From: Candidatus Heimdallarchaeota archaeon
GTDB lineage: Archaea > Asgardarchaeota > Heimdallarchaeia > Heimdallarchaeales > Heimdallarchaeaceae
NCBI GenBank assembly: GCA_030668825.1
Contig: DAOVET010000010.1
Span: forward strand, 1-46,982
Length of the DNA: 46,982 bases
Direction of reading: 5' to 3'
In this document: positions 6,075-44,349 of the stretch, one piece after another
How positions within the stretch are numbered: position 1 is the stretch's first letter
Layout of the letters: every line of letters starts with the position of its first letter
Notes under the pieces: model-generated
Databases searched by the model: none
Seen by the model: only the letters and a program-made list of their open reading frames with translations
What the model was told of the DNA's origin: nothing
Position numbers and translations under genes: made by a program

Positions 6075-7103
6075 ATGAAAATAGGTCTATTAACAGGTGG
6101 AGGAGATTGCCCTGGTTTAAATGCTGTTATCAGAGCTGTAGGTAGGAAAGGGGTAGACTATTACAGTTATGAATTCATCGGAATAAAAAATGGATGGGCT
6201 GGTCTCATGGCTCTAGATTACATAGAGATGGAAAGAAAAGATTTTTCAGGCATCTTACACCTTGGAGGAACTATTCTTGGATCATCTAGAACTAATCCTG
6301 AGAAAGAAGAAGGGGGATATGACTTAGCTGTAAGAAATTTCAAGGAATTAAATCTTGATGCACTTGTAGTAATTGGAGGAGATGATACATTAAGTGTTGC
6401 TCAAAAATTACACGAGAGAGGTATACCCATAGTAGGGGTTCCTAAGACTATTGATAATGATATTTGTGCAACTGACATGACTTTTGGATTCGATACAGCT
6501 GTATCTATAGCTACAGAAGCAATCGATAGATTACATACGACAGCTGAGTCACATCATAGATGTATGGTCGTAGAAGTAATGGGTCGACACACAGGATGGA
6601 TTGCAACATATGCGGGAATAGCTGGAGGAGCTGATATAGTACTCATTCCTGAAGAAGCGTTTGATATGAATGATGTAATTGACAAAATACAAAAAAGAAT
6701 GAACAGAGGAAAATTCTTCTCCATTGTAGTAGTAGCTGAAGGATATCAACTCAAAGAAGAGGGATGGGAAATACAAACTAAAGAGAAAGATAATTTTGGA
6801 AATATTCGTCTAGGGGGTATAGGGGATCTCGTCGCAAGAGAGATAGAAAAACGTCTAGGAATTGAATCAAGAGCTGTAGTTCTAGGACATGTTCAACGTG
6901 GAGGAACTCCCACTGCATATGACAGAATCTTAGGAACTAAGTATGGTATAGCAGCTGTTGACTTGGTTCATGAAGGAAAGTTTGGTATGATGACCTCTCT
7001 TCAAGGTACTAAGATAAGAGCTGTAACAATTGAAGAGGGAGTCAAAGAATCTAAAACTGTTGATAAAGAAACCTACGAAATTGCCAAAGTGTTTTTTGGA
7101 TAA
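6075..7103 (+). CDS. pfkA: PfkA-family 6-phosphofructokinase, probably PPi-dependent
   Basis: TGGGDCPGLN, GGTILGSSR, GGDDT, PKTIDND, VMGR, GHVQRGG; ATG 6075 preferred to TTG 6063. Confidence 0.92.
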   Translation: MKIGLLTGGGDCPGLNAVIRAVGRKGVDYYSYEFIGIKNGWAGLMALDYIEMERKDFSGILHLGGTILGSSRTNPEKEEGGYDLAVRNFKELNLDALVVIGGDDTLSVAQKLHERGIPIVGVPKTIDNDICATDMTFGFDTAVSIATEAIDRLHTTAESHHRCMVVEVMGRHTGWIATYAGIAGGADIVLIPEEAFDMNDVIDKIQKRMNRGKFFSIVVVAEGYQLKEEGWEIQTKEKDNFGNIRLGGIGDLVAREIEKRLGIESRAVVLGHVQRGGTPTAYDRILGTKYGIAAVDLVHEGKFGMMTSLQGTKIRAVTIEEGVKESKTVDKETYEIAKVFFG

Positions 7104-7164
7104 TTAATCTGGTACAAATAAACTATCTATCTATAATAATAAAAAAAAGAAGCAAAGATTATGA

Positions 7165-7320
7165 CTAATCTTTTTGTAAAAATGCATATAATGCAAAACT
7201 TTCTTGATCACAGTTAATAACTTTCCAACCAGAGTCGAGAGATGATTGTACCTCATTTTCAAATGCTTACATAAATTCTGCTATTGTAATATAACCTGTT
7301 TTTGTATATTTTTTTGGTAT
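7165..7320 (-). pseudogene. possible remnant of a small protein
   Basis: IPKKYTKTGYITIAEFM*AFENEVQSSLDSGWKVINCDQESFALYAFLQKD*; protein-like, with an internal stop and no start. Confidence 0.25.
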
Positions 7321-7349
7321 TTAAATAGGGTAGTGTAATTTATACCTTG

Positions 7350-7550
7350 AAGGATTATAGCTATGCACCAGTACTATGGTGGTCCTTGGGGCTATATCCA
7401 ACGAACTTCCAAAAGCGAACCGTAAGCATCTTAGTAAGAAGATGTGGGCGGTGTAGGAGGGGATGTGGCGTCCCCATGATGTGCTTCAGGCACTTCTAAA
7501 GAATTTGTAAAAAATTCATGTCATATCTTGTTGGTCTTTGGTTAACCATT
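7350..7550 (+). ncRNA. stand-alone TnpB omegaRNA-like structured RNA, no tnpB ORF
   Basis: GC-rich island; 7411-7475 aligns ungapped with the 3' ends of both tnpB loci (41/65 and 42/65 identical by hand count) with compensatory changes in three stems; TTTAAATA at 7320-7327; ends approximate. Confidence 0.8.
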
Positions 7551-7731
7551 CTAATTACTTTAAATTTAGTCATGACAGTAAGAATTTTGAAGTTCTATAA
7601 ATCTTTATGCAAATCTCAAAAGGGATCCAAGATGAACATGATTTGTGTTTATTGAAAAAAAATACCAAGTAAATTTTGGTATAGTAAAATTGTTTGGATA
7701 GATAAATAAAGTACAAATGTAAGAAGGGTTT

Positions 7732-8352
7732 ATGGAAGAACTCTTATCTAGTTTAGTTTCAGTGAGAAAAGTGGATATTGGAAAAGCAGCAGAAACGCTT
7801 ACTTTAGCTTTCATGGATGATCCATTAAGTAATACTGTTTTCCAAGAAGAAGCTACCAGGTTTCAAAATCTACTAACCTATTTTCAATTTCGGATTAAGT
7901 ATGGTTTAAAGTATGGAGAAGTATATTCCACATCTAACGATTTTGAGGGAGTTGCTATTTGGTTACCTGGTAAGAAAGCTCATGTAAGCAATTGGAGAGG
8001 GATGCTCTCAGGTGGAATGAAACTTTATCGTGAAATAGGTAGAGAGATTATAACTAAATTTAATGAAATAAACCATTATACAACTGATTTTAGAAATTCT
8101 ATCATACAACCACCATATCATCAATTATCCCCTATAGGAGTAATTCCAGAAATGCAAGGTAAAGGATTCGGAAGCAAATTACTTAAACCAATGTTTGAAC
8201 GATTTGATGATAAAAAAATTATCTGTTTTCTTGAAACCCAAACTAAAACGAACATACCAATGTATCAGAAATATGGGTTTGAAGTTGTAAAAGAAGGAAA
8301 AATTACTAATACAAACCTACAACATTGGGGAATGAAACGAGAACCAAAATAG
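7732..8352 (+). CDS. GNAT family N-acetyltransferase
   Basis: AFMDDP, GVAIW, IGVIPEMQGKGFGSKLL, LETQ..NIPMYQKYGF. Confidence 0.9.
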   Translation: MEELLSSLVSVRKVDIGKAAETLTLAFMDDPLSNTVFQEEATRFQNLLTYFQFRIKYGLKYGEVYSTSNDFEGVAIWLPGKKAHVSNWRGMLSGGMKLYREIGREIITKFNEINHYTTDFRNSIIQPPYHQLSPIGVIPEMQGKGFGSKLLKPMFERFDDKKIICFLETQTKTNIPMYQKYGFEVVKEGKITNTNLQHWGMKREPK

Positions 8353-28890: not shown

Positions 28891-30141
28891 ATGACAAAAG
28901 TTCTTCGAGTGGAGTGTATAGAACTAAACTATCATTCTGCTTTGAGTAAACTGTGTCATCAAGTGAAAAATCTCTATAATCGAGCAAACTTTCTTGTTAA
29001 AACATCGTTACAAAAAAACAAAAAACTTCTTTTCTATTACGAACTTAATAATCTCCTCAAACAAGAAGAATGTTATAAGAATCTCCCTGTTCACACTGCT
29101 CAACACAGCATAAAACTGCTTTGCAGAAATTGGAAAGGATTTTTTAGAGCAATCAAAGAGTGGGAAACAAATCCAGAGACATTCTTCACTAAACCACAAC
29201 CACCTAATTATAAAGCTAAGAATGGTGAGTTAGTAGCAATTTTTACAAACCAACAAGCTAGGATAGTAAATGGCTGGTTAGTCCTTCCCAAAAAGGTGGG
29301 TTTCTATTACAAAACAAGACTATCTCCACTTACTAAATTGAGAGAAGTAAGAATTGTTCCAAGAAGAGTAGGATATACGATTGAACTAGTATATCAGAAG
29401 ATCTTACCCAAAATGAGTAAACAGTCAAAAAGAAAAGGAGCAATAGATTTGGGGATGACAAACCTCGTAACCTTTGTGGATAACCTCGGAAACCAACCGA
29501 TTGTTATCAAGGATACAGGGAAAGGTATCAAAAGCATTACACAATATTATCTGAAAAAACAGAAATAATTACAAGAACAATACGTACAACAACAAAAAAA
29601 ACTGCTAAAAGAGAAGAGCAAAGTTAGTTATGGACCTGCATATTATAAGCTTCGAGAGAAGTGGAGAAGAAAACTTAAGGATACTCTTCATAAGCTAACT
29701 ATTTATTTAGTAAACTTATGGGTTAAAAGAGAATTACATGAAGTGATTATAGGGTACAATGAAATGTGGAAACAAGAGGTTCATTTTTGGAAAAAGACTA
29801 CCCAGATATTTGTTTCAATTCCATATAGGAGAATCATCACCATGTTGAAGTATAAGGCTGCAGAGAATGAGATAAACGTTGTTCTCATTCCTGAAGAATA
29901 CACATCTAAATGTAGTTTTCTAGATAATGAATTCCCAGAAAAACAACAGACATATGTTGGACGAAGAGTAACTCGAGGATTGTTCAAATCTGCCAATGGA
30001 CATATTATTAACGCGGATGTTAACGCAGCATTTAACATTTTAATTAAAAGCGATCCGAAAGCACTTCCTCCACGGAGTGTGAACGGGGTAGGAGGATACG
30101 TGATGTATCCACATAGAGTGAGTATAGAACAGCTACAATGA
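28891..30141 (+). pseudogene. tnpB: IS200/IS605-family tnpB with one in-frame TAA (29566-29568); IS1341-like, no tnpA
   Basis: ORFs 28891-29568 and 29743-30141 share a frame; read-through is colinear with the 43102-44349 protein; AIDLG, IIGYN..WKQ, EEYTSKCSFLD, NADVNAA. Confidence 0.9.
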
Positions 30142-30182
30142 CATCTATGAAAGATATTCAACAACCTAATATTTTAGGTAGC
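30046..30182 (+). ncRNA. omegaRNA scaffold overlapping the tnpB 3' end, plus putative guide
   Basis: Stems GCACTTC/GGAGTGT, GGATAC/GTATCC, CATAGA/TCTATG; candidate end TTCAAC at 30157-30162; 5' end unknown. Confidence 0.75.
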
Positions 30183-30256
30183 AAAATTATACCAACTCAT
30201 CATAAATCTTCCGCAGATATTTAAAAAAGGAAAAATGGGAGGATTTTAGATAAAAA

Positions 30257-42705: not shown

Positions 42706-43056
42706 CTATACTTTATTTAGAGATTCTAAAGCTCTATTTAGTTCAACAATTGTCAAATAATCGTCTTCATATTCAATCAAGAACTTCTTCTCTTGGTTGA
42801 TTTTTTTCTTTGTTTCAATTATATCATCTGATCTTTGTTTGGTTTTGTCTTCGAGCATTTTGAGATGAAGAAACGAAAGTAATTTTTCCCAAAGATCATT
42901 CTTGTCGTATTCAGAAAAACTATCCAAGAATTCCTCTATTTGATTGACTATCTTATCTGGGTTAGTATTGTTCTGTTGAGCTATTTTAAACAACTTCTGT
43001 TTTTGTTTGTAACTCAGCTGATACTTCACATATTTTTTCTTCTTTGAAAAACTCAT
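42706..43056 (-). CDS. hypothetical protein, possible ribbon-helix-helix N-terminus
   Basis: KKKYVKYQLSYKQKQKLFKIAQQNNTNPDKIV strand-helix-helix pattern. Confidence 0.55.
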   Translation of the reverse strand: MSFSKKKKYVKYQLSYKQKQKLFKIAQQNNTNPDKIVNQIEEFLDSFSEYDKNDLWEKLLSFLHLKMLEDKTKQRSDDIIETKKKINQEKKFLIEYEDDYLTIVELNRALESLNKV

Positions 43057-43058
43057 GA

Positions 43059-43191
43059 TTAGATTTTACCTTAATCCCGTTAAAACCTTTTTCTTAGATA
43101 ATCATTGCTCGAAGCTCCATCTAAGCGGATAAATCACATATCCTCCTACCCCGCCCACACTACGTTTGGGTAGTGCTTGCGGATCGCCTTT
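43059..43191 (-). ncRNA. omegaRNA scaffold overlapping the intact tnpB 3' end, plus putative guide
   Basis: Minus-strand stems GCACTAC/GTAGTGT, GGATA/TATCC, CTTAGAT/ATCTAAG; candidate end TTTAAC at 43079; 5' end unknown. Confidence 0.75.
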
Positions 43192-44349
43192 CAGTAAAAT
43201 ATTATATGCACCATTTACATCAGCATTAATCTTTATTCCTTGAGTAGATTGGAACAGTCCTCGAGTAACTCTTTCTCCTTTATACTGTGTTCTTTTTTGC
43301 GGATATTCATTATCCAAAAAACTACATTTGGAAGTATAATCCTCTTCAATTGTGTCAACAACGATTCCTTGCTCTTCAGCCTTATATTTTAGAGTGTGGA
43401 TGATTTTGTCAAAGGGGATGATAACAAACATCTGAGTAGTCTTCTTACCCAAACGCACCTGTTGTTTCCATCTAGGATTGTACCCAATAATCACTCGTTG
43501 TATTCCTTTTTCCACCCAGTAATCAACGAACTGCTTACCCATTTGATGAATCCAGTTTCTAACTTTCTTTCGCTTAGTTTCACGTATCTTATGAAATCGA
43601 GAACCATATACTAGATTATTTTGTTGTTTGAGTTGTTTTCCTTGCTGTTGTGCATACTTTTGCTGTATTTTTTTTCCTTCTTTCAGATAGAACTGGATGA
43701 TGGACTTAATCCCTTTCCCCTCATCCTTGACAACAATAGGTCGTGAGTTGATGTTGTCCACATAAGTAATGAGGTTGGTTATTCCTAGATCTATCGCTCC
43801 TATGTTTTTTCCACTTACCTCTGCATTAGGAACAAGTTTAGTATAAACAATTTCAATTGTATATCCCAGAGCTCGAGGGATAATTCGTACCTCTTTCACT
43901 TTAGTAGTTTCTATTAATCTGGTTTTTATGGAAAAGAGTACTTTTCTTGGGAAAATAAGCTTTCTTCCCTCTATTCTCACTTGTTGATTCGTAAAAATAG
44001 CTATTTGCTGACCATTCTTTGCTTTATATTTTGGGGGACGAGGTTTTGCTAGAAACACTTGAGGATGAACTTTGTATTCCTTTCTTGCTTGCCTAAAACT
44101 TTTCCAATTGCGCGTAAGTAGTTTGAGGGTGTGTTGAGCTGTGTGTGCGGGAAGAATCTTATAGCACTCTTCCTTTTTCAACTTTCGGTCTAATTGTTGA
44201 TAAGATAGATATTTCTTCGTTTGGTAATAGTATTGCTTGAACAGGAACATTGCTCTATTGTAGAGGTTTTTGGTTTGAAAACACAATTGGTGTAAAGGAG
44301 GATGCGCTTTGGTTTCCATCACTTCCGTTCTCCACACTTCATGTGCCAT
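43102..44349 (-). mobile_element. tnpB: IS200/IS605-family RNA-guided endonuclease TnpB, intact ORF; IS1341-like, no tnpA
   Basis: KNLYN, RuvC-I AIDLG, IIGYN..WKQ, EEDYTSKCSFLD, RGLF, RuvC-III NADVNGAYNI. Confidence 0.92.

What the first reader, a model, noticed from the sequence alone, without database searches (positions are those of the whole stretch)
7411..7550. Orphan omegaRNA: a TnpB guide scaffold kept as RNA with no protein gene
Seen: 7411-7475 (AAAAGCGAACCGTAAGCATCTTAGTAAGAAGATGTGGGCGGTGTAGGAGGGGATGTGGCGTCCCC) aligns without gaps to 30046-30110 and 43191-43127, the 3' ends of the two tnpB genes (41/65 and 42/65 identical). Stem differences are compensatory: GCATCTT/AAGATGT vs GCACTTC/GGAGTGT vs GCACTAC/GTAGTGT; GGGGAT/GTCCCC vs GGATAC/GTATCC; ACCG/CGGT vs TCCG/CGGG. 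The GTAGGAGG segment is invariant. A fourth helix follows in all three (ATGATGTG/CATGTCAT here). The tnpB-equivalent frame has TAA, TAG and TAA stops and no tnpB sequence is recognisable upstream. Established: TnpB omegaRNAs overlap the tnpB 3' end and the guide lies 3' of the scaffold. Inference: a structure-selected, trans-acting guide RNA gene with its guide starting near 7535-7547.
Basis: partly seen in the sequence, partly recalled or inferred. Interest (0 to 1): 0.92.

Follow-up and report, generated by a model that had tools for sequence, protein, structure and literature searches.

The report
Mobile mini-transposon carrying orphan guide RNA
The flagged stretch is one of six copies of a 232-base protein-less jumping element in an Asgard archaeon that carries a TnpB-type guide-RNA scaffold, a kind of element already described elsewhere, so it is a well-defined new example rather than a new principle.

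Summary
But it is not a lone retained RNA gene. It is the core of a 232-bp non-autonomous IS200/IS605-type element (7293-7524). That element has six copies in this genome and occurs in 14 of 24 congeners.

- **Insertion:** it sits 3' of xTAT with no target duplication. Intact empty sites in three congeners fix both ends.
- **Organism:** related records are all titled Candidatus Heimdallarchaeota, so this is an archaeon.
- **Layout:** left end, a conserved TATA-like box (7320-7327), a variable spacer, then a 176-nt structured RNA (7349-7524). The guide would start at 7525, not 7535-7547.
- **Structure:** across 40 copies, 97.4% of pair cells are paired. Sixteen of 46 pairs carry changes on both sides, against 5.1 in shuffles.
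- **Missing partners:** no tnpB with this scaffold type turned up anywhere searched. No Y1 TnpA turned up in 25 genomes.
- **Untested:** expression and TnpB loading.

Standalone omegaRNAs and omegaRNA-bearing PATEs are already in print, so this is a new member of a known kind.

The parts
7289..7292 (.). Target (TAM-like) tetranucleotide, ATAT here, immediately 5' of the insertion.
   Evidence: The four bases left of the element are TTAT in 33 of 46 aligned copies and ATAT in 4. At this locus the empty sites read ..GCAT|ATCTTG (G009, G018) and ..TTAT|ATCTTG (G024).
7293..7524 (+). Whole 232-bp non-autonomous IS200/IS605-type mini-element (PATE/MITE-like), running AACCTG...CATGTCAT.
   Evidence: Six copies in the genome at 81-100% identity with unrelated flanks. 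The ends are fixed by uninterrupted empty sites in three congeners, and there is no target duplication.
7293..7319 (+). Left end: a variable 6-nt tip followed by a conserved T-rich/GTAYA block.
   Evidence: A2 columns 1-7 have mean conservation 0.58 and columns 8-29 have 0.90. By eye it resembles the left ends of full-length tnpB elements (TTAT | about 10 nt | TTTGTCA).
7320..7327 (+). TATA-like octamer TTTAAATA, read as an archaeal promoter. This is inference.
   Evidence: TTTAAATA in 28 of 40 copies and TTTATATA in 6 of 40. It consists of A/T only in 35 of 40, with column conservation 0.95. It lies a fixed 28 nt before the conserved block in 39 of 40 copies.
7328..7348 (+). Poorly conserved spacer between the TATA-like box and the predicted RNA start.
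   Evidence: Its conservation of 0.74 is lower than any other internal segment; only the 6-nt 5' tip (0.58) is lower.
7349..7524 (+). Predicted omegaRNA scaffold of 176 nt with eight helices.
- H1: 7352-7362 with 7390-7399
- H2: 7366-7369 with 7378-7381
- H3: 7420-7423 with 7448-7451
- H4: 7427-7432 with 7439-7444
- H5: 7459-7465 with 7469-7475
- H6: 7476-7480 with 7520-7524
- H7: 7481-7484 with 7490-7493
- H8: 7501-7506 with 7512-7517
   Evidence: RNAalifold and pair counts on 40 copies. The single-sequence fold has z -2.45, and its centroid shows H1-H5, H7 and H8.
7411..7475 (+). Core (H3, H4, GTAGGAGG, H5) homologous to the tnpB-linked omegaRNAs.
7525..7544 (+). Predicted guide: flanking DNA read through from the scaffold. 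The 16-20 nt length is assumed.
   Evidence: It begins right after the right-end boundary set by the empty sites. The 20-mer is identical at the empty sites of G009 and G018. It has no second TAM-flanked match in this genome.
43102..44349 (-). Intact tnpB (415 aa), a candidate partner acting in trans.
   Evidence: Pfam Cas12f1-like_TNB E 7e-11 and OrfB_IS605 E 2e-6. There is an open frame.
43055..43217 (-). omegaRNA region linked to that tnpB. Its right end closes ...AATCAT at 43055.
   Evidence: Model R1 hit of 41.4 bits, E 4e-11. Sequence read.
28891..30203 (+). Second tnpB element. The ORF 28891-30141 has one in-frame stop, the omegaRNA core is at 30046-30110, and the right end closes ...CATCAT at 30203.

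Best explanation
Window 7293-7524 is a copy of a 232-bp protein-less derivative of an IS200/IS605-family (IS1341-type, tnpB-only) transposon in a Heimdallarchaeota genome. It is a palindrome-associated/miniature element that has kept only three things: a left end, a promoter-like TATA box, and a complete TnpB guide-RNA (omegaRNA) scaffold ending at the right end.

Shown here:
- the exact ends;
- insertion 3' of xTAT without duplication;
- six copies in the genome and many in relatives;
- presence/absence polymorphism between species;
- homology of the core to tnpB-linked omegaRNAs;
- eight helices kept by compensatory change on the + strand.

Inferred:
- Transcription starts near 7349, about 26 nt after the centre of the TATA-like box.
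- It runs through the scaffold into the flank, so 7525 onwards becomes a 16-20-nt guide.
- A TnpB encoded elsewhere loads this RNA in trans. The genome has about 19 tnpB loci, and those nearest in scaffold are the ones with the GGGTAC..TACCC stem.
- The complex would cut the empty allele (TTAT followed by ATCTTGTTGG...). Recombination with an occupied copy would then restore the element. This is the retention/homing model shown for TnpB elements.
- The element therefore parasitises the nucleases of the full-length elements.
For: - Copies and ends.
- Empty sites at two loci.
- Target motif: TTAT in 33 of 46 copies, and the base after the right end is A in 41 of 45.
- Spread: 14 of 24 other congeners by BLAST. 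Model hits above 150 bits are listed in 13 of 47 genomes of the order, including both genomes of a second genus.
- Structure: 46 pairs, 97.4% of 1791 cells paired. Sixteen pairs have changes on both sides, against 5.1 +/- 1.6 in shuffles (0 of 500 reach it) and 2-5 in slid controls.
- Strand: 181 G.U cells against 10 A.C cells, and 97.4% paired on this strand against 87.8% on the other.
- Homology to tnpB-linked omegaRNAs in both directions.
- Promoter-spacer-RNA pattern of conservation.
- Guides match only their own flank.
- Organism: all 30 loci from the GTDB pattern scan are titled Candidatus Heimdallarchaeota.
- Published precedent, passages read: PATEs 'often encode omegaRNAs' that need TnpB in trans (PMC10055086). 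Standalone omegaRNAs are mobilised and work in trans (PMC10691335).
Against: - No transcript evidence. No run on record as RNA holds the stretch.
- No tnpB gene with this scaffold type was found in any collection searched.
- The 5' module (7349-7410) and the guide-proximal 3' module (7476-7524) differ from those of all 19 resident tnpB-linked RNAs. Loading by a resident TnpB is therefore not assured.
- Resident scaffolds score only 41-52 bits on the mini model, against 150-213 bits for mini copies.
- No Y1 TnpA was found in 25 of 25 genomes of the genus with PF01797, nor in this genome with NF033573. The excision that the homing model answers is thus undemonstrated. These are draft genomes 72-92% complete, so absence is not proven.
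- This copy has ATAT, not TTAT, at its left flank.
- The TATA reading rests on recalled archaeal promoter geometry.
Confidence: 0.68

Rival explanations
1. The RNA is functional, but its nuclease is a cognate TnpB of its own scaffold type that is not among the resident ones. That TnpB could sit on an unbinned contig, a virus or a plasmid, or it could have been lost recently. The resident TnpBs would not load this RNA.
For: The scaffold forms a lineage of its own. Mini copies score 150-213 bits on model R1, while tnpB-linked RNAs score 41-52 bits. The 5' and 3' modules differ. The genomes are incomplete drafts of 72-92%.
Against: No such tnpB was found beside the scaffold in any of the following:
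- the own genome;
- 24 congeners;
- 47 genomes of the order, with nine intermediate hits checked;
- 30 GTDB loci;
- 7 metagenome loci.
The core and the invariant GTAGGAGG segment are shared with the resident RNAs.
Confidence: 0.12
2. It is a selfish but RNA-inert miniature element. The conserved pairing reflects shared ancestry, or single-strand DNA structure needed for transposition, and no guide RNA is made or used.
For: - IS200/IS605 elements move as single-stranded DNA and need sub-terminal hairpins. H8 (GAATTT/AAATTC, 7 nt from the end) fits that role.
- There is no RNA evidence.
- Copies are related to one another, so shuffle controls overstate significance, a caveat stated.
Against: - Six helices lie far from the ends (H1-H5 and H7), and five of them (all but H3) carry compensatory changes. 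A transposase that reads terminal hairpins does not need them.
- Slid controls that keep relatedness give 2-5 pairs changed on both sides, against 16 observed.
- H4 occurs in at least five fully different complementary versions across copies.
- A conserved A/T-only box sits at a fixed distance before the structured block.
Confidence: 0.13
3. It is an exapted host regulator: a guide RNA or small RNA kept at this locus to control neighbouring genes or to defend against invaders.
For: It lies between pfkA and an acetyltransferase gene, in the same orientation as both. It carries its own promoter-like box.
Against: - The locus is empty in at least three congeners.
- Each copy has a different guide that equals its own flank. 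No second TAM-flanked target exists in the genome at up to 3 mismatches in 20 nt.
- Copies sit at unrelated intergenic sites.
- There is no adjacent nuclease-dead tnpB-like gene.
Confidence: 0.05

Closest known systems
Standalone (orphan) omegaRNAs of OMEGA systems. First reported by Altae-Tran et al. 2021; that paper was not read, and is cited here through the passage in PMC10691335.
   Same: A mobilised omegaRNA locus with no adjacent effector or transposase, in a genome that also holds effector-containing loci. The guide lies just outside the transposon end.
   Different: - The host here is an Asgard archaeon.
- The scaffold is not a near-copy of any resident tnpB-linked one.
- The element carries a TATA-like box placed to start the RNA at the first helix.
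- Function in trans is untested here.
Palindrome-associated transposable elements (PATEs). Sources: Dyall-Smith et al. 2011, PMC3119063 (passages), and Meers et al. 2023 preprint, PMC10055086 (passages).
   Same: - Too short to encode a transposase.
- No terminal inverted repeats and no target duplication.
- Insertion next to a 4-5-nt targeting sequence.
- A near-terminal palindrome at the 3' end.
- Related to IS605-type, tnpB-only elements.
- Strain- or species-specific insertions.
- Meers et al. state that PATEs often encode omegaRNAs needing TnpB in trans.
   Different: No clear palindrome was found at the left end. Most of the element is RNA scaffold rather than fused termini. The lineage is Heimdallarchaeota, not haloarchaea or Geobacillus.
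The tnpB-linked omegaRNAs of the same genome, especially those with the GGGCGGGGTAGGAGGGTACGTGGTTTACCC core (contigs C43, C113, C135, C8).
   Same: H3, H4, the GTAGGAGG segment and H5 with its TGR triloop. The right end closes in TCAT. The left flank is TTAT in at least 9 of 19 by eye.
   Different: - They overlap a tnpB ORF.
- They have a UAGAG/CUCUA helix and a CUUGUC/GACAAG hairpin, where the mini element has H7 and H8.
- They have no counterpart of H1/H2 detectable by sequence.
Guide RNAs of TldR, the nuclease-dead TnpB-like repressors (PMC10705468; only the search listing and the start of the abstract were seen).
   Different: Here the element is mobile, multi-copy and polymorphic. Its guides are simply the flanks, and there is no adjacent tnpB-like gene.

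Membership tests
TnpB omegaRNA | The scaffold lies at the right end of an IS200/IS605-family element and stops at the element boundary, so the guide is flanking DNA. | tested here: met
   The right-end boundary at 7524 is fixed by empty sites. Similarity among the six copies stops there.
TnpB omegaRNA | Homology to scaffolds that overlap the 3' end of tnpB genes. | tested here: met
   An HMM built from the 19 tnpB-linked cores finds 6 of 6 mini copies at E<=3.3e-4 and nothing in a shuffled genome. A model built from mini copies hits the tnpB-linked ends at 41-52 bits. The homology is limited to about 65 nt.
TnpB omegaRNA | Conserved secondary structure supported by covariation. | tested here: met
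TnpB omegaRNA | Transcribed as RNA that includes the guide. | not testable with these tools
   No holder on record as RNA. The contigs laid cannot show transcripts.
TnpB omegaRNA | Bound by TnpB, directing TAM-dependent DNA cleavage. | not testable with these tools
   This needs biochemistry or an interference assay.
PATE / non-autonomous IS200/IS605 derivative | Too short to encode a transposase. | tested here: met
   The element is 232 bp. The tnpB-equivalent frame has three stops in the core (TAA, TAG, TAA) and a fourth further on. No ORF of 80 aa or more lies in 7104-7731.
PATE / non-autonomous IS200/IS605 derivative | No target duplication, and insertion beside a short targeting oligonucleotide. 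| tested here: met
   Empty sites at two loci. TTAT in 33 of 46 copies.
PATE / non-autonomous IS200/IS605 derivative | Near-terminal palindromes at both ends and no terminal inverted repeats. | tested here: inconclusive
   The right end has GAATTT-GTAMA-AAATTC 7 nt from the terminus (H8). No convincing palindrome was seen at the left end. The apparent pairing of the 5' tip with bases after the TATA-like box was not consistent among copies (by eye).
PATE / non-autonomous IS200/IS605 derivative | Dispersed copies with species-specific insertions. | tested here: met
PATE / non-autonomous IS200/IS605 derivative | A Y1 (HUH) TnpA available in trans to move it. | tested here: not met
   PF01797 found in 0 of 25 genomes of the genus. 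NF033573 found 0 in the own genome. The controls ring. The drafts are 72-92% complete, so absence is not proven.
Domesticated guide RNA (TldR-like) | A fixed locus, a conserved guide aimed at a host promoter, and an adjacent nuclease-dead TnpB-like gene. | tested here: not met
Any Rfam 15 family | A match at the gathering score. | tested here: not met
   0 matches in the whole window. In 7250-7580 the only match is a chance-level one, RgsA at E 4.6.

The most novel reading that the evidence does not exclude
The element belongs to a long-lived lineage of protein-less, self-promoted guide-RNA transposons in Heimdallarchaeota. It has evolved its own omegaRNA architecture, free of any overlapping ORF. 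It persists and spreads across at least two genera in genomes where no TnpA transposase is detectable. Its spread would then depend on hijacking TnpB nucleases of unrelated sub-families, that is RNA-guided homing as the main driver, or on an unrecognised mobilising enzyme.
Probability: 0.12. Interest if true: 0.7.

Novelty: new member of a known kind. Interest (0 to 1): 0.36.

Why it matters
It documents, with base-exact ends and covariation, a family of guide-RNA-only transposon derivatives in Asgard archaea. It thereby extends published observations on PATEs and standalone omegaRNAs to this group.

Three points are of practical use:
- It is a natural promoter-scaffold-guide cassette. It shows what a TnpB guide RNA looks like once freed from the overlapping tnpB reading frame.
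- Multi-copy tnpB and mini elements coexist here with no detectable TnpA in 25 draft genomes. That sharpens the old question of how tnpB-only elements and their miniatures move.
- For annotation, such loci should be labelled as IS200/IS605 miniature elements with an omegaRNA, not as novel small-RNA genes.

Tried and rejected
- **Rfam:** no family at gathering score in the window. Only a chance-level match appears in 7250-7580.
- **tRNA scan:** none.
- **Sigma-70 promoter and intrinsic-terminator scan of 7200-7740:** 0 and 0. This is of little weight because the host is an archaeon.
- **RNA evidence:** no RNA holder is listed among 24 runs. X20 is labelled 'RNA? (probably DNA)'. Its three short contigs lie only inside the multi-copy element, at 7299-7500. 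That says nothing on expression.
- **Empty-site joints:** no contig with the empty site was seen in the four runs laid.
- **My idea that 7349-7410 is decayed tnpB 3' coding sequence:** it rested on a by-eye resemblance (GDPRGYIQRTSKSEP against ADVNGAYNILLKGDP). I rejected it as unsupported, because the HMM of that tnpB region finds no match on the six copies.
- **A left-end hairpin pairing the 5' tip with bases after the TATA-like box:** it looked complementary in some copies (L039, L038) but not in others (L024, L030), so I dropped it.
- **A long-range helix TTGTAC/GTAGGA proposed by RNAalifold:** there is no covariation, and its 5' arm lies upstream of the predicted RNA start. I left it out of the counted structure.
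- **Search for a full-length parent:**
  - Partial BLAST hits in G012, G023 and G024 turned out to be copies cut by contig ends.
  - L014, L062, L063 and L068 have no TnpB upstream.
  - 30 GTDB loci and 7 metagenome loci have none.
  - The nine intermediate hits to model R1 are either tnpB-linked RNAs of the resident type or further orphans.
  - 186 weaker model matches were not listed and were not examined.
- **PDB sequence search with the 415-aa TnpB:** no match at E<=0.01, so catalytic residues were not aligned to a solved structure.
- **Alignment rows:**
  - One search listed 90 matches, six of them in this genome. I fetched 40 of those in relatives: the 39 near-full-length ones plus L060.
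  - Of the resulting 46 copies, 40 complete ones entered A2.
  - Dropped were L044 and L047 (right end replaced), L056, L058 and L059 (cut by contig ends) and L060 (5'-truncated).
  - A3 additionally omits L029, which is identical to L030.
- **Supplements:** supplementary files of the papers were not opened. Extended Data of Meers et al. and Tables S8-S9 of Dyall-Smith et al. may show comparable elements.

Full report
**Observation.**
- The 65 bases 7411-7475 align without gaps to 30046-30110 and to the reverse complement of 43127-43191.
- The gene at 43102-44349 (-) is an intact 415-aa TnpB (Pfam Cas12f1-like_TNB and OrfB_IS605). The one at 28891-30141 (+) is full length but has one in-frame stop.
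- In the tnpB-equivalent frame the segment reads KSEP*AS**EDVGGVGGDV.
- The likeness is not chance. An HMM built only from the 19 tnpB-linked cores of the genome finds all six mini copies at E 5.6e-5 to 3.3e-4. It finds nothing in a shuffled genome.

**What surrounds it.**
- BLAST of the region against the whole genome (2.76 Mb, 138 contigs, 33% G+C) shows that the segment is not unique. The unit 7293-7524 recurs on contigs C123, C26, C38, C53 and C92 at 96.7, 94.5, 94.5, 90.4 and 81.3% identity, with unrelated flanks.
- About 19 tnpB loci are present in the genome. None has a right end more than 81% identical to the unit over 53-69 nt.
- The unit was found in 14 of 24 other genomes of the genus, with up to 13 matches per genome. 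It was found in 0 of 16 genomes of other genera of the order by BLAST.

**Exact ends.**
- Searching the locus (6850-7950) in the genus gave split alignments that abut in five congeners.
- I read three of them at base level. G009 and G018 have ...GTAGCAT|ATCTTGTTGGTCTTTGG..., and G024 has ...AGAATTAT|ATCTTGTTGG.... The window has ...GTAATAT|[232 bp]|ATCTTGTTGG....
- The insertion is therefore 7293-7524, with no target duplication.
- A second copy, on C123, also has an uninterrupted empty site, in G024.
- Over 46 aligned copies the four bases to the left are TTAT in 33 and ATAT in 4. The base after the right end is A in 41 of 45.
- Insertion 3' of a tetranucleotide without duplication, and an end in TCAT, are the marks of IS200/IS605-type elements. 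The full-length tnpB elements here show TTAT on the left in at least 9 of 19 and ...TCAT on the right, by eye.

**Organism.** An exact 31-nt pattern from the scaffold matched 30 loci in one-genome-per-species GTDB contigs. All are titled 'MAG: Candidatus Heimdallarchaeota archaeon'. It also matched 7 metagenome contigs. DNA holders are marine-sediment and cold-seep metagenomes. The host is thus an Asgard archaeon, and bacterial promoter rules do not apply.

**Anatomy.** I aligned 40 complete copies (A2). Of the 46 fetched, six truncated or rearranged ones were dropped.
- Conservation by segment: a variable 6-nt tip (0.58), a T-rich/GTAYA block (0.90), an octamer (0.95), a 19-nt spacer (0.74), and then a conserved block to the end (0.82-0.94).
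- The octamer is TTTAAATA in 28 of 40 copies and TTTATATA in 6, and consists of A/T only in 35.
- It lies a fixed 28 nt before the conserved block in 39 of 40 copies.
- From what I recall of archaeal promoters (TATA box centred near -26), transcription would start at about 7349-7351. That is the first bases of the conserved block. This step is inference.

**Structure.**
- RNAalifold on A2 and pair counting give 46 pairs in eight helices (window coordinates).
- 97.4% of 1791 cells are paired. Sixteen pairs have changes on both sides, against 5.1 +/- 1.6 in 500 shuffles (none reaches 16) and 2-5 when partners are slid by 1-3 columns.
- H4 alone occurs as CATCTT/AAGATG, CTTTGC/GCAAAG, CCTTAC/GTAAGG, CTTTGT/ACAAGG and CGCTTC/GAAGTG in different copies.
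- G.U cells number 181 against 10 A.C cells. Pairing is 97.4% on this strand and 87.8% on the other. That points to an RNA, or at least a top-strand molecule.
- The single sequence 7349-7544 folds with z -2.45, and its centroid shows seven of the eight helices.
- The relatedness of the copies inflates shuffle statistics; the slid controls speak to that.

**Relation to the tnpB-linked RNAs.**
- The 19 full-length elements share H3, H4, the GTAGGAGG segment and H5.
- They then have a UAGAG/CUCUA helix around the stop codon and a CUUGUC/GACAAG hairpin before ...TCAT.
- The mini element has H6-H8 instead. It also has a 5' module (H1, H2) with no detectable similarity to the tnpB coding sequence that occupies that place in full-length elements.
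- A covariance model built from 39 mini copies (R1) scores mini copies at 150-213 bits and tnpB-linked ends at 41-52 bits. It finds the mini type in a second genus of the family (23 and 17 matches). It gives no match in 20 genomes of 11 other genera.
- Nine intermediate hits were fetched. Six lie behind tnpB genes and carry the resident GGGTAC..TACCC type, and three are further orphans.
- Hence no tnpB gene ending in the mini-type scaffold was seen in any collection searched.

**Guide.**
- The 20 bases after each of the six right ends match only their own locus. No second site preceded by a TTAT-like motif exists at up to 3 mismatches in 20, or 2 in 16.
- The window's 20-mer is identical at the empty sites of G009 and G018.
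- This fits the published retention model, in which the guide targets the vacated site. It does not fit a regulator with a host target.
- All six copies are intergenic or touch gene ends.

**Open points.**
- Expression could not be tested.
- No Y1 transposase was detected in 25 of 25 genomes of the genus with PF01797, or in this genome with NF033573. The controls were positive. These are drafts 72-92% complete. How the elements move is therefore unresolved, yet insertions differ between sister species.
- Which TnpB, if any, loads the RNA is unknown.

**Literature.**
- Meers et al. (preprint PMC10055086, passages) state that PATEs 'often encode omegaRNAs' that need TnpB in trans.
- The PNAS 2023 survey (PMC10691335, passages) states that mobilised standalone omegaRNAs exist and work in trans with compatible effectors, citing Altae-Tran et al. 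2021, which I did not read.
- Dyall-Smith et al. 2011 (PMC3119063, passages) define PATEs and their origin from IS605-type elements by core deletion. They also note mobility where tnpA genes are all broken.
- A 2026 survey (PMC13343696, passages) reports IS200/IS605 in more than 65% of Asgard genomes.
- My three full-text searches turned up no description of omegaRNA-bearing miniature elements in Asgard archaea. That is a statement about those searches only.

**Verdict.** The locus is a new, well-delimited member of a known kind: a non-autonomous IS200/IS605 element carrying a standalone omegaRNA.

Noticed in passing
Own genome, contigs C105:7773-8099 (+) and C133:16378-16699 (+): A second, unrelated-looking family of protein-less elements of about 330 bp with an omegaRNA core. 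The two copies are 73% alike. Each runs TTAT | left end | TATA-like box (GTTTATATAG or GTTTAAATAT) | about 24 nt | GGGAA... RNA | ...GAAATCAT. The C105 copy sits directly after the 3' end of a tRNA-like sequence.
   Followed up: partly
Own genome, contig C127:11396-11456 (-): Another orphan omegaRNA core of the resident type, with only a 21-aa TnpB-like remnant and no tnpB gene in the 240 nt before the contig end.
   Followed up: partly
window 7104-7292 and 7525-7549, minus strand: The insertion splits a 50-codon ORF (MVNQRPTRYATIADFMQAFENEV...) after codon 8. The ORF is intact in G009 and G018. The window's downstream part also has a stop, and G024 has a stop at codon 4. Whether it is a real gene is unknown.
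   Followed up: partly
window 28891-30141 (+): This tnpB is full length (417 codons read through) but has a single in-frame stop after ...YYLKKQK.
   Followed up: no
L042, L044, L047 (genome G011): Three copies are broken exactly at GTAC, either in the right-end hairpin loop or in the left-end GTACA. The same foreign sequence interrupts them, and its two ends (CAGTACTYGAAC... and ...GTTCAAGTACTG) are inverted repeats. This recalls the small repeats that target PATE palindromes in Haloquadratum.
   Followed up: no
25 genomes of the genus (G000-G024): No Y1 TnpA (PF01797) was found in any of them, although tnpB elements and miniatures are multi-copy and differ in position between species.
   Followed up: partly
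window 43102-44349 (-) and 28891-30141 (+), proteins: By eye, where the RuvC-II glutamate motif is expected, both TnpBs read VIIGYN, and both have EE(D/E)YTSKCS further on. The PNAS 2023 survey describes TnpB branches with that glutamate replaced by glycine and compensated elsewhere. This was not aligned formally, and there was no PDB sequence match.
   Followed up: no
L051 (G023), L058 (G010), L101/L102, L087/L097: These mini copies have an H4 and neighbouring bases of the tnpB-linked type (GATCCGAAA...GTGAACGGGG) or other fully compensated versions. That suggests recombination or intermediate forms between families.
   Followed up: no
L012 (G024:C128): A mini copy starts 4 nt after a 35-aa C-terminal TnpB fragment (94% identical to the window's TnpB) that lies on the opposite strand.
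   Followed up: no
L014 (G013:C81:24300-24837): A mini copy is interrupted near unit position 130 by about 316 nt of other sequence.
   Followed up: no
G000:C92:1177-1399, L033 (G009), L041 (G012): The most divergent own copy (81%) lies at the same site, with the same flanks, in three species. It is therefore an older, inherited insertion.
   Followed up: partly
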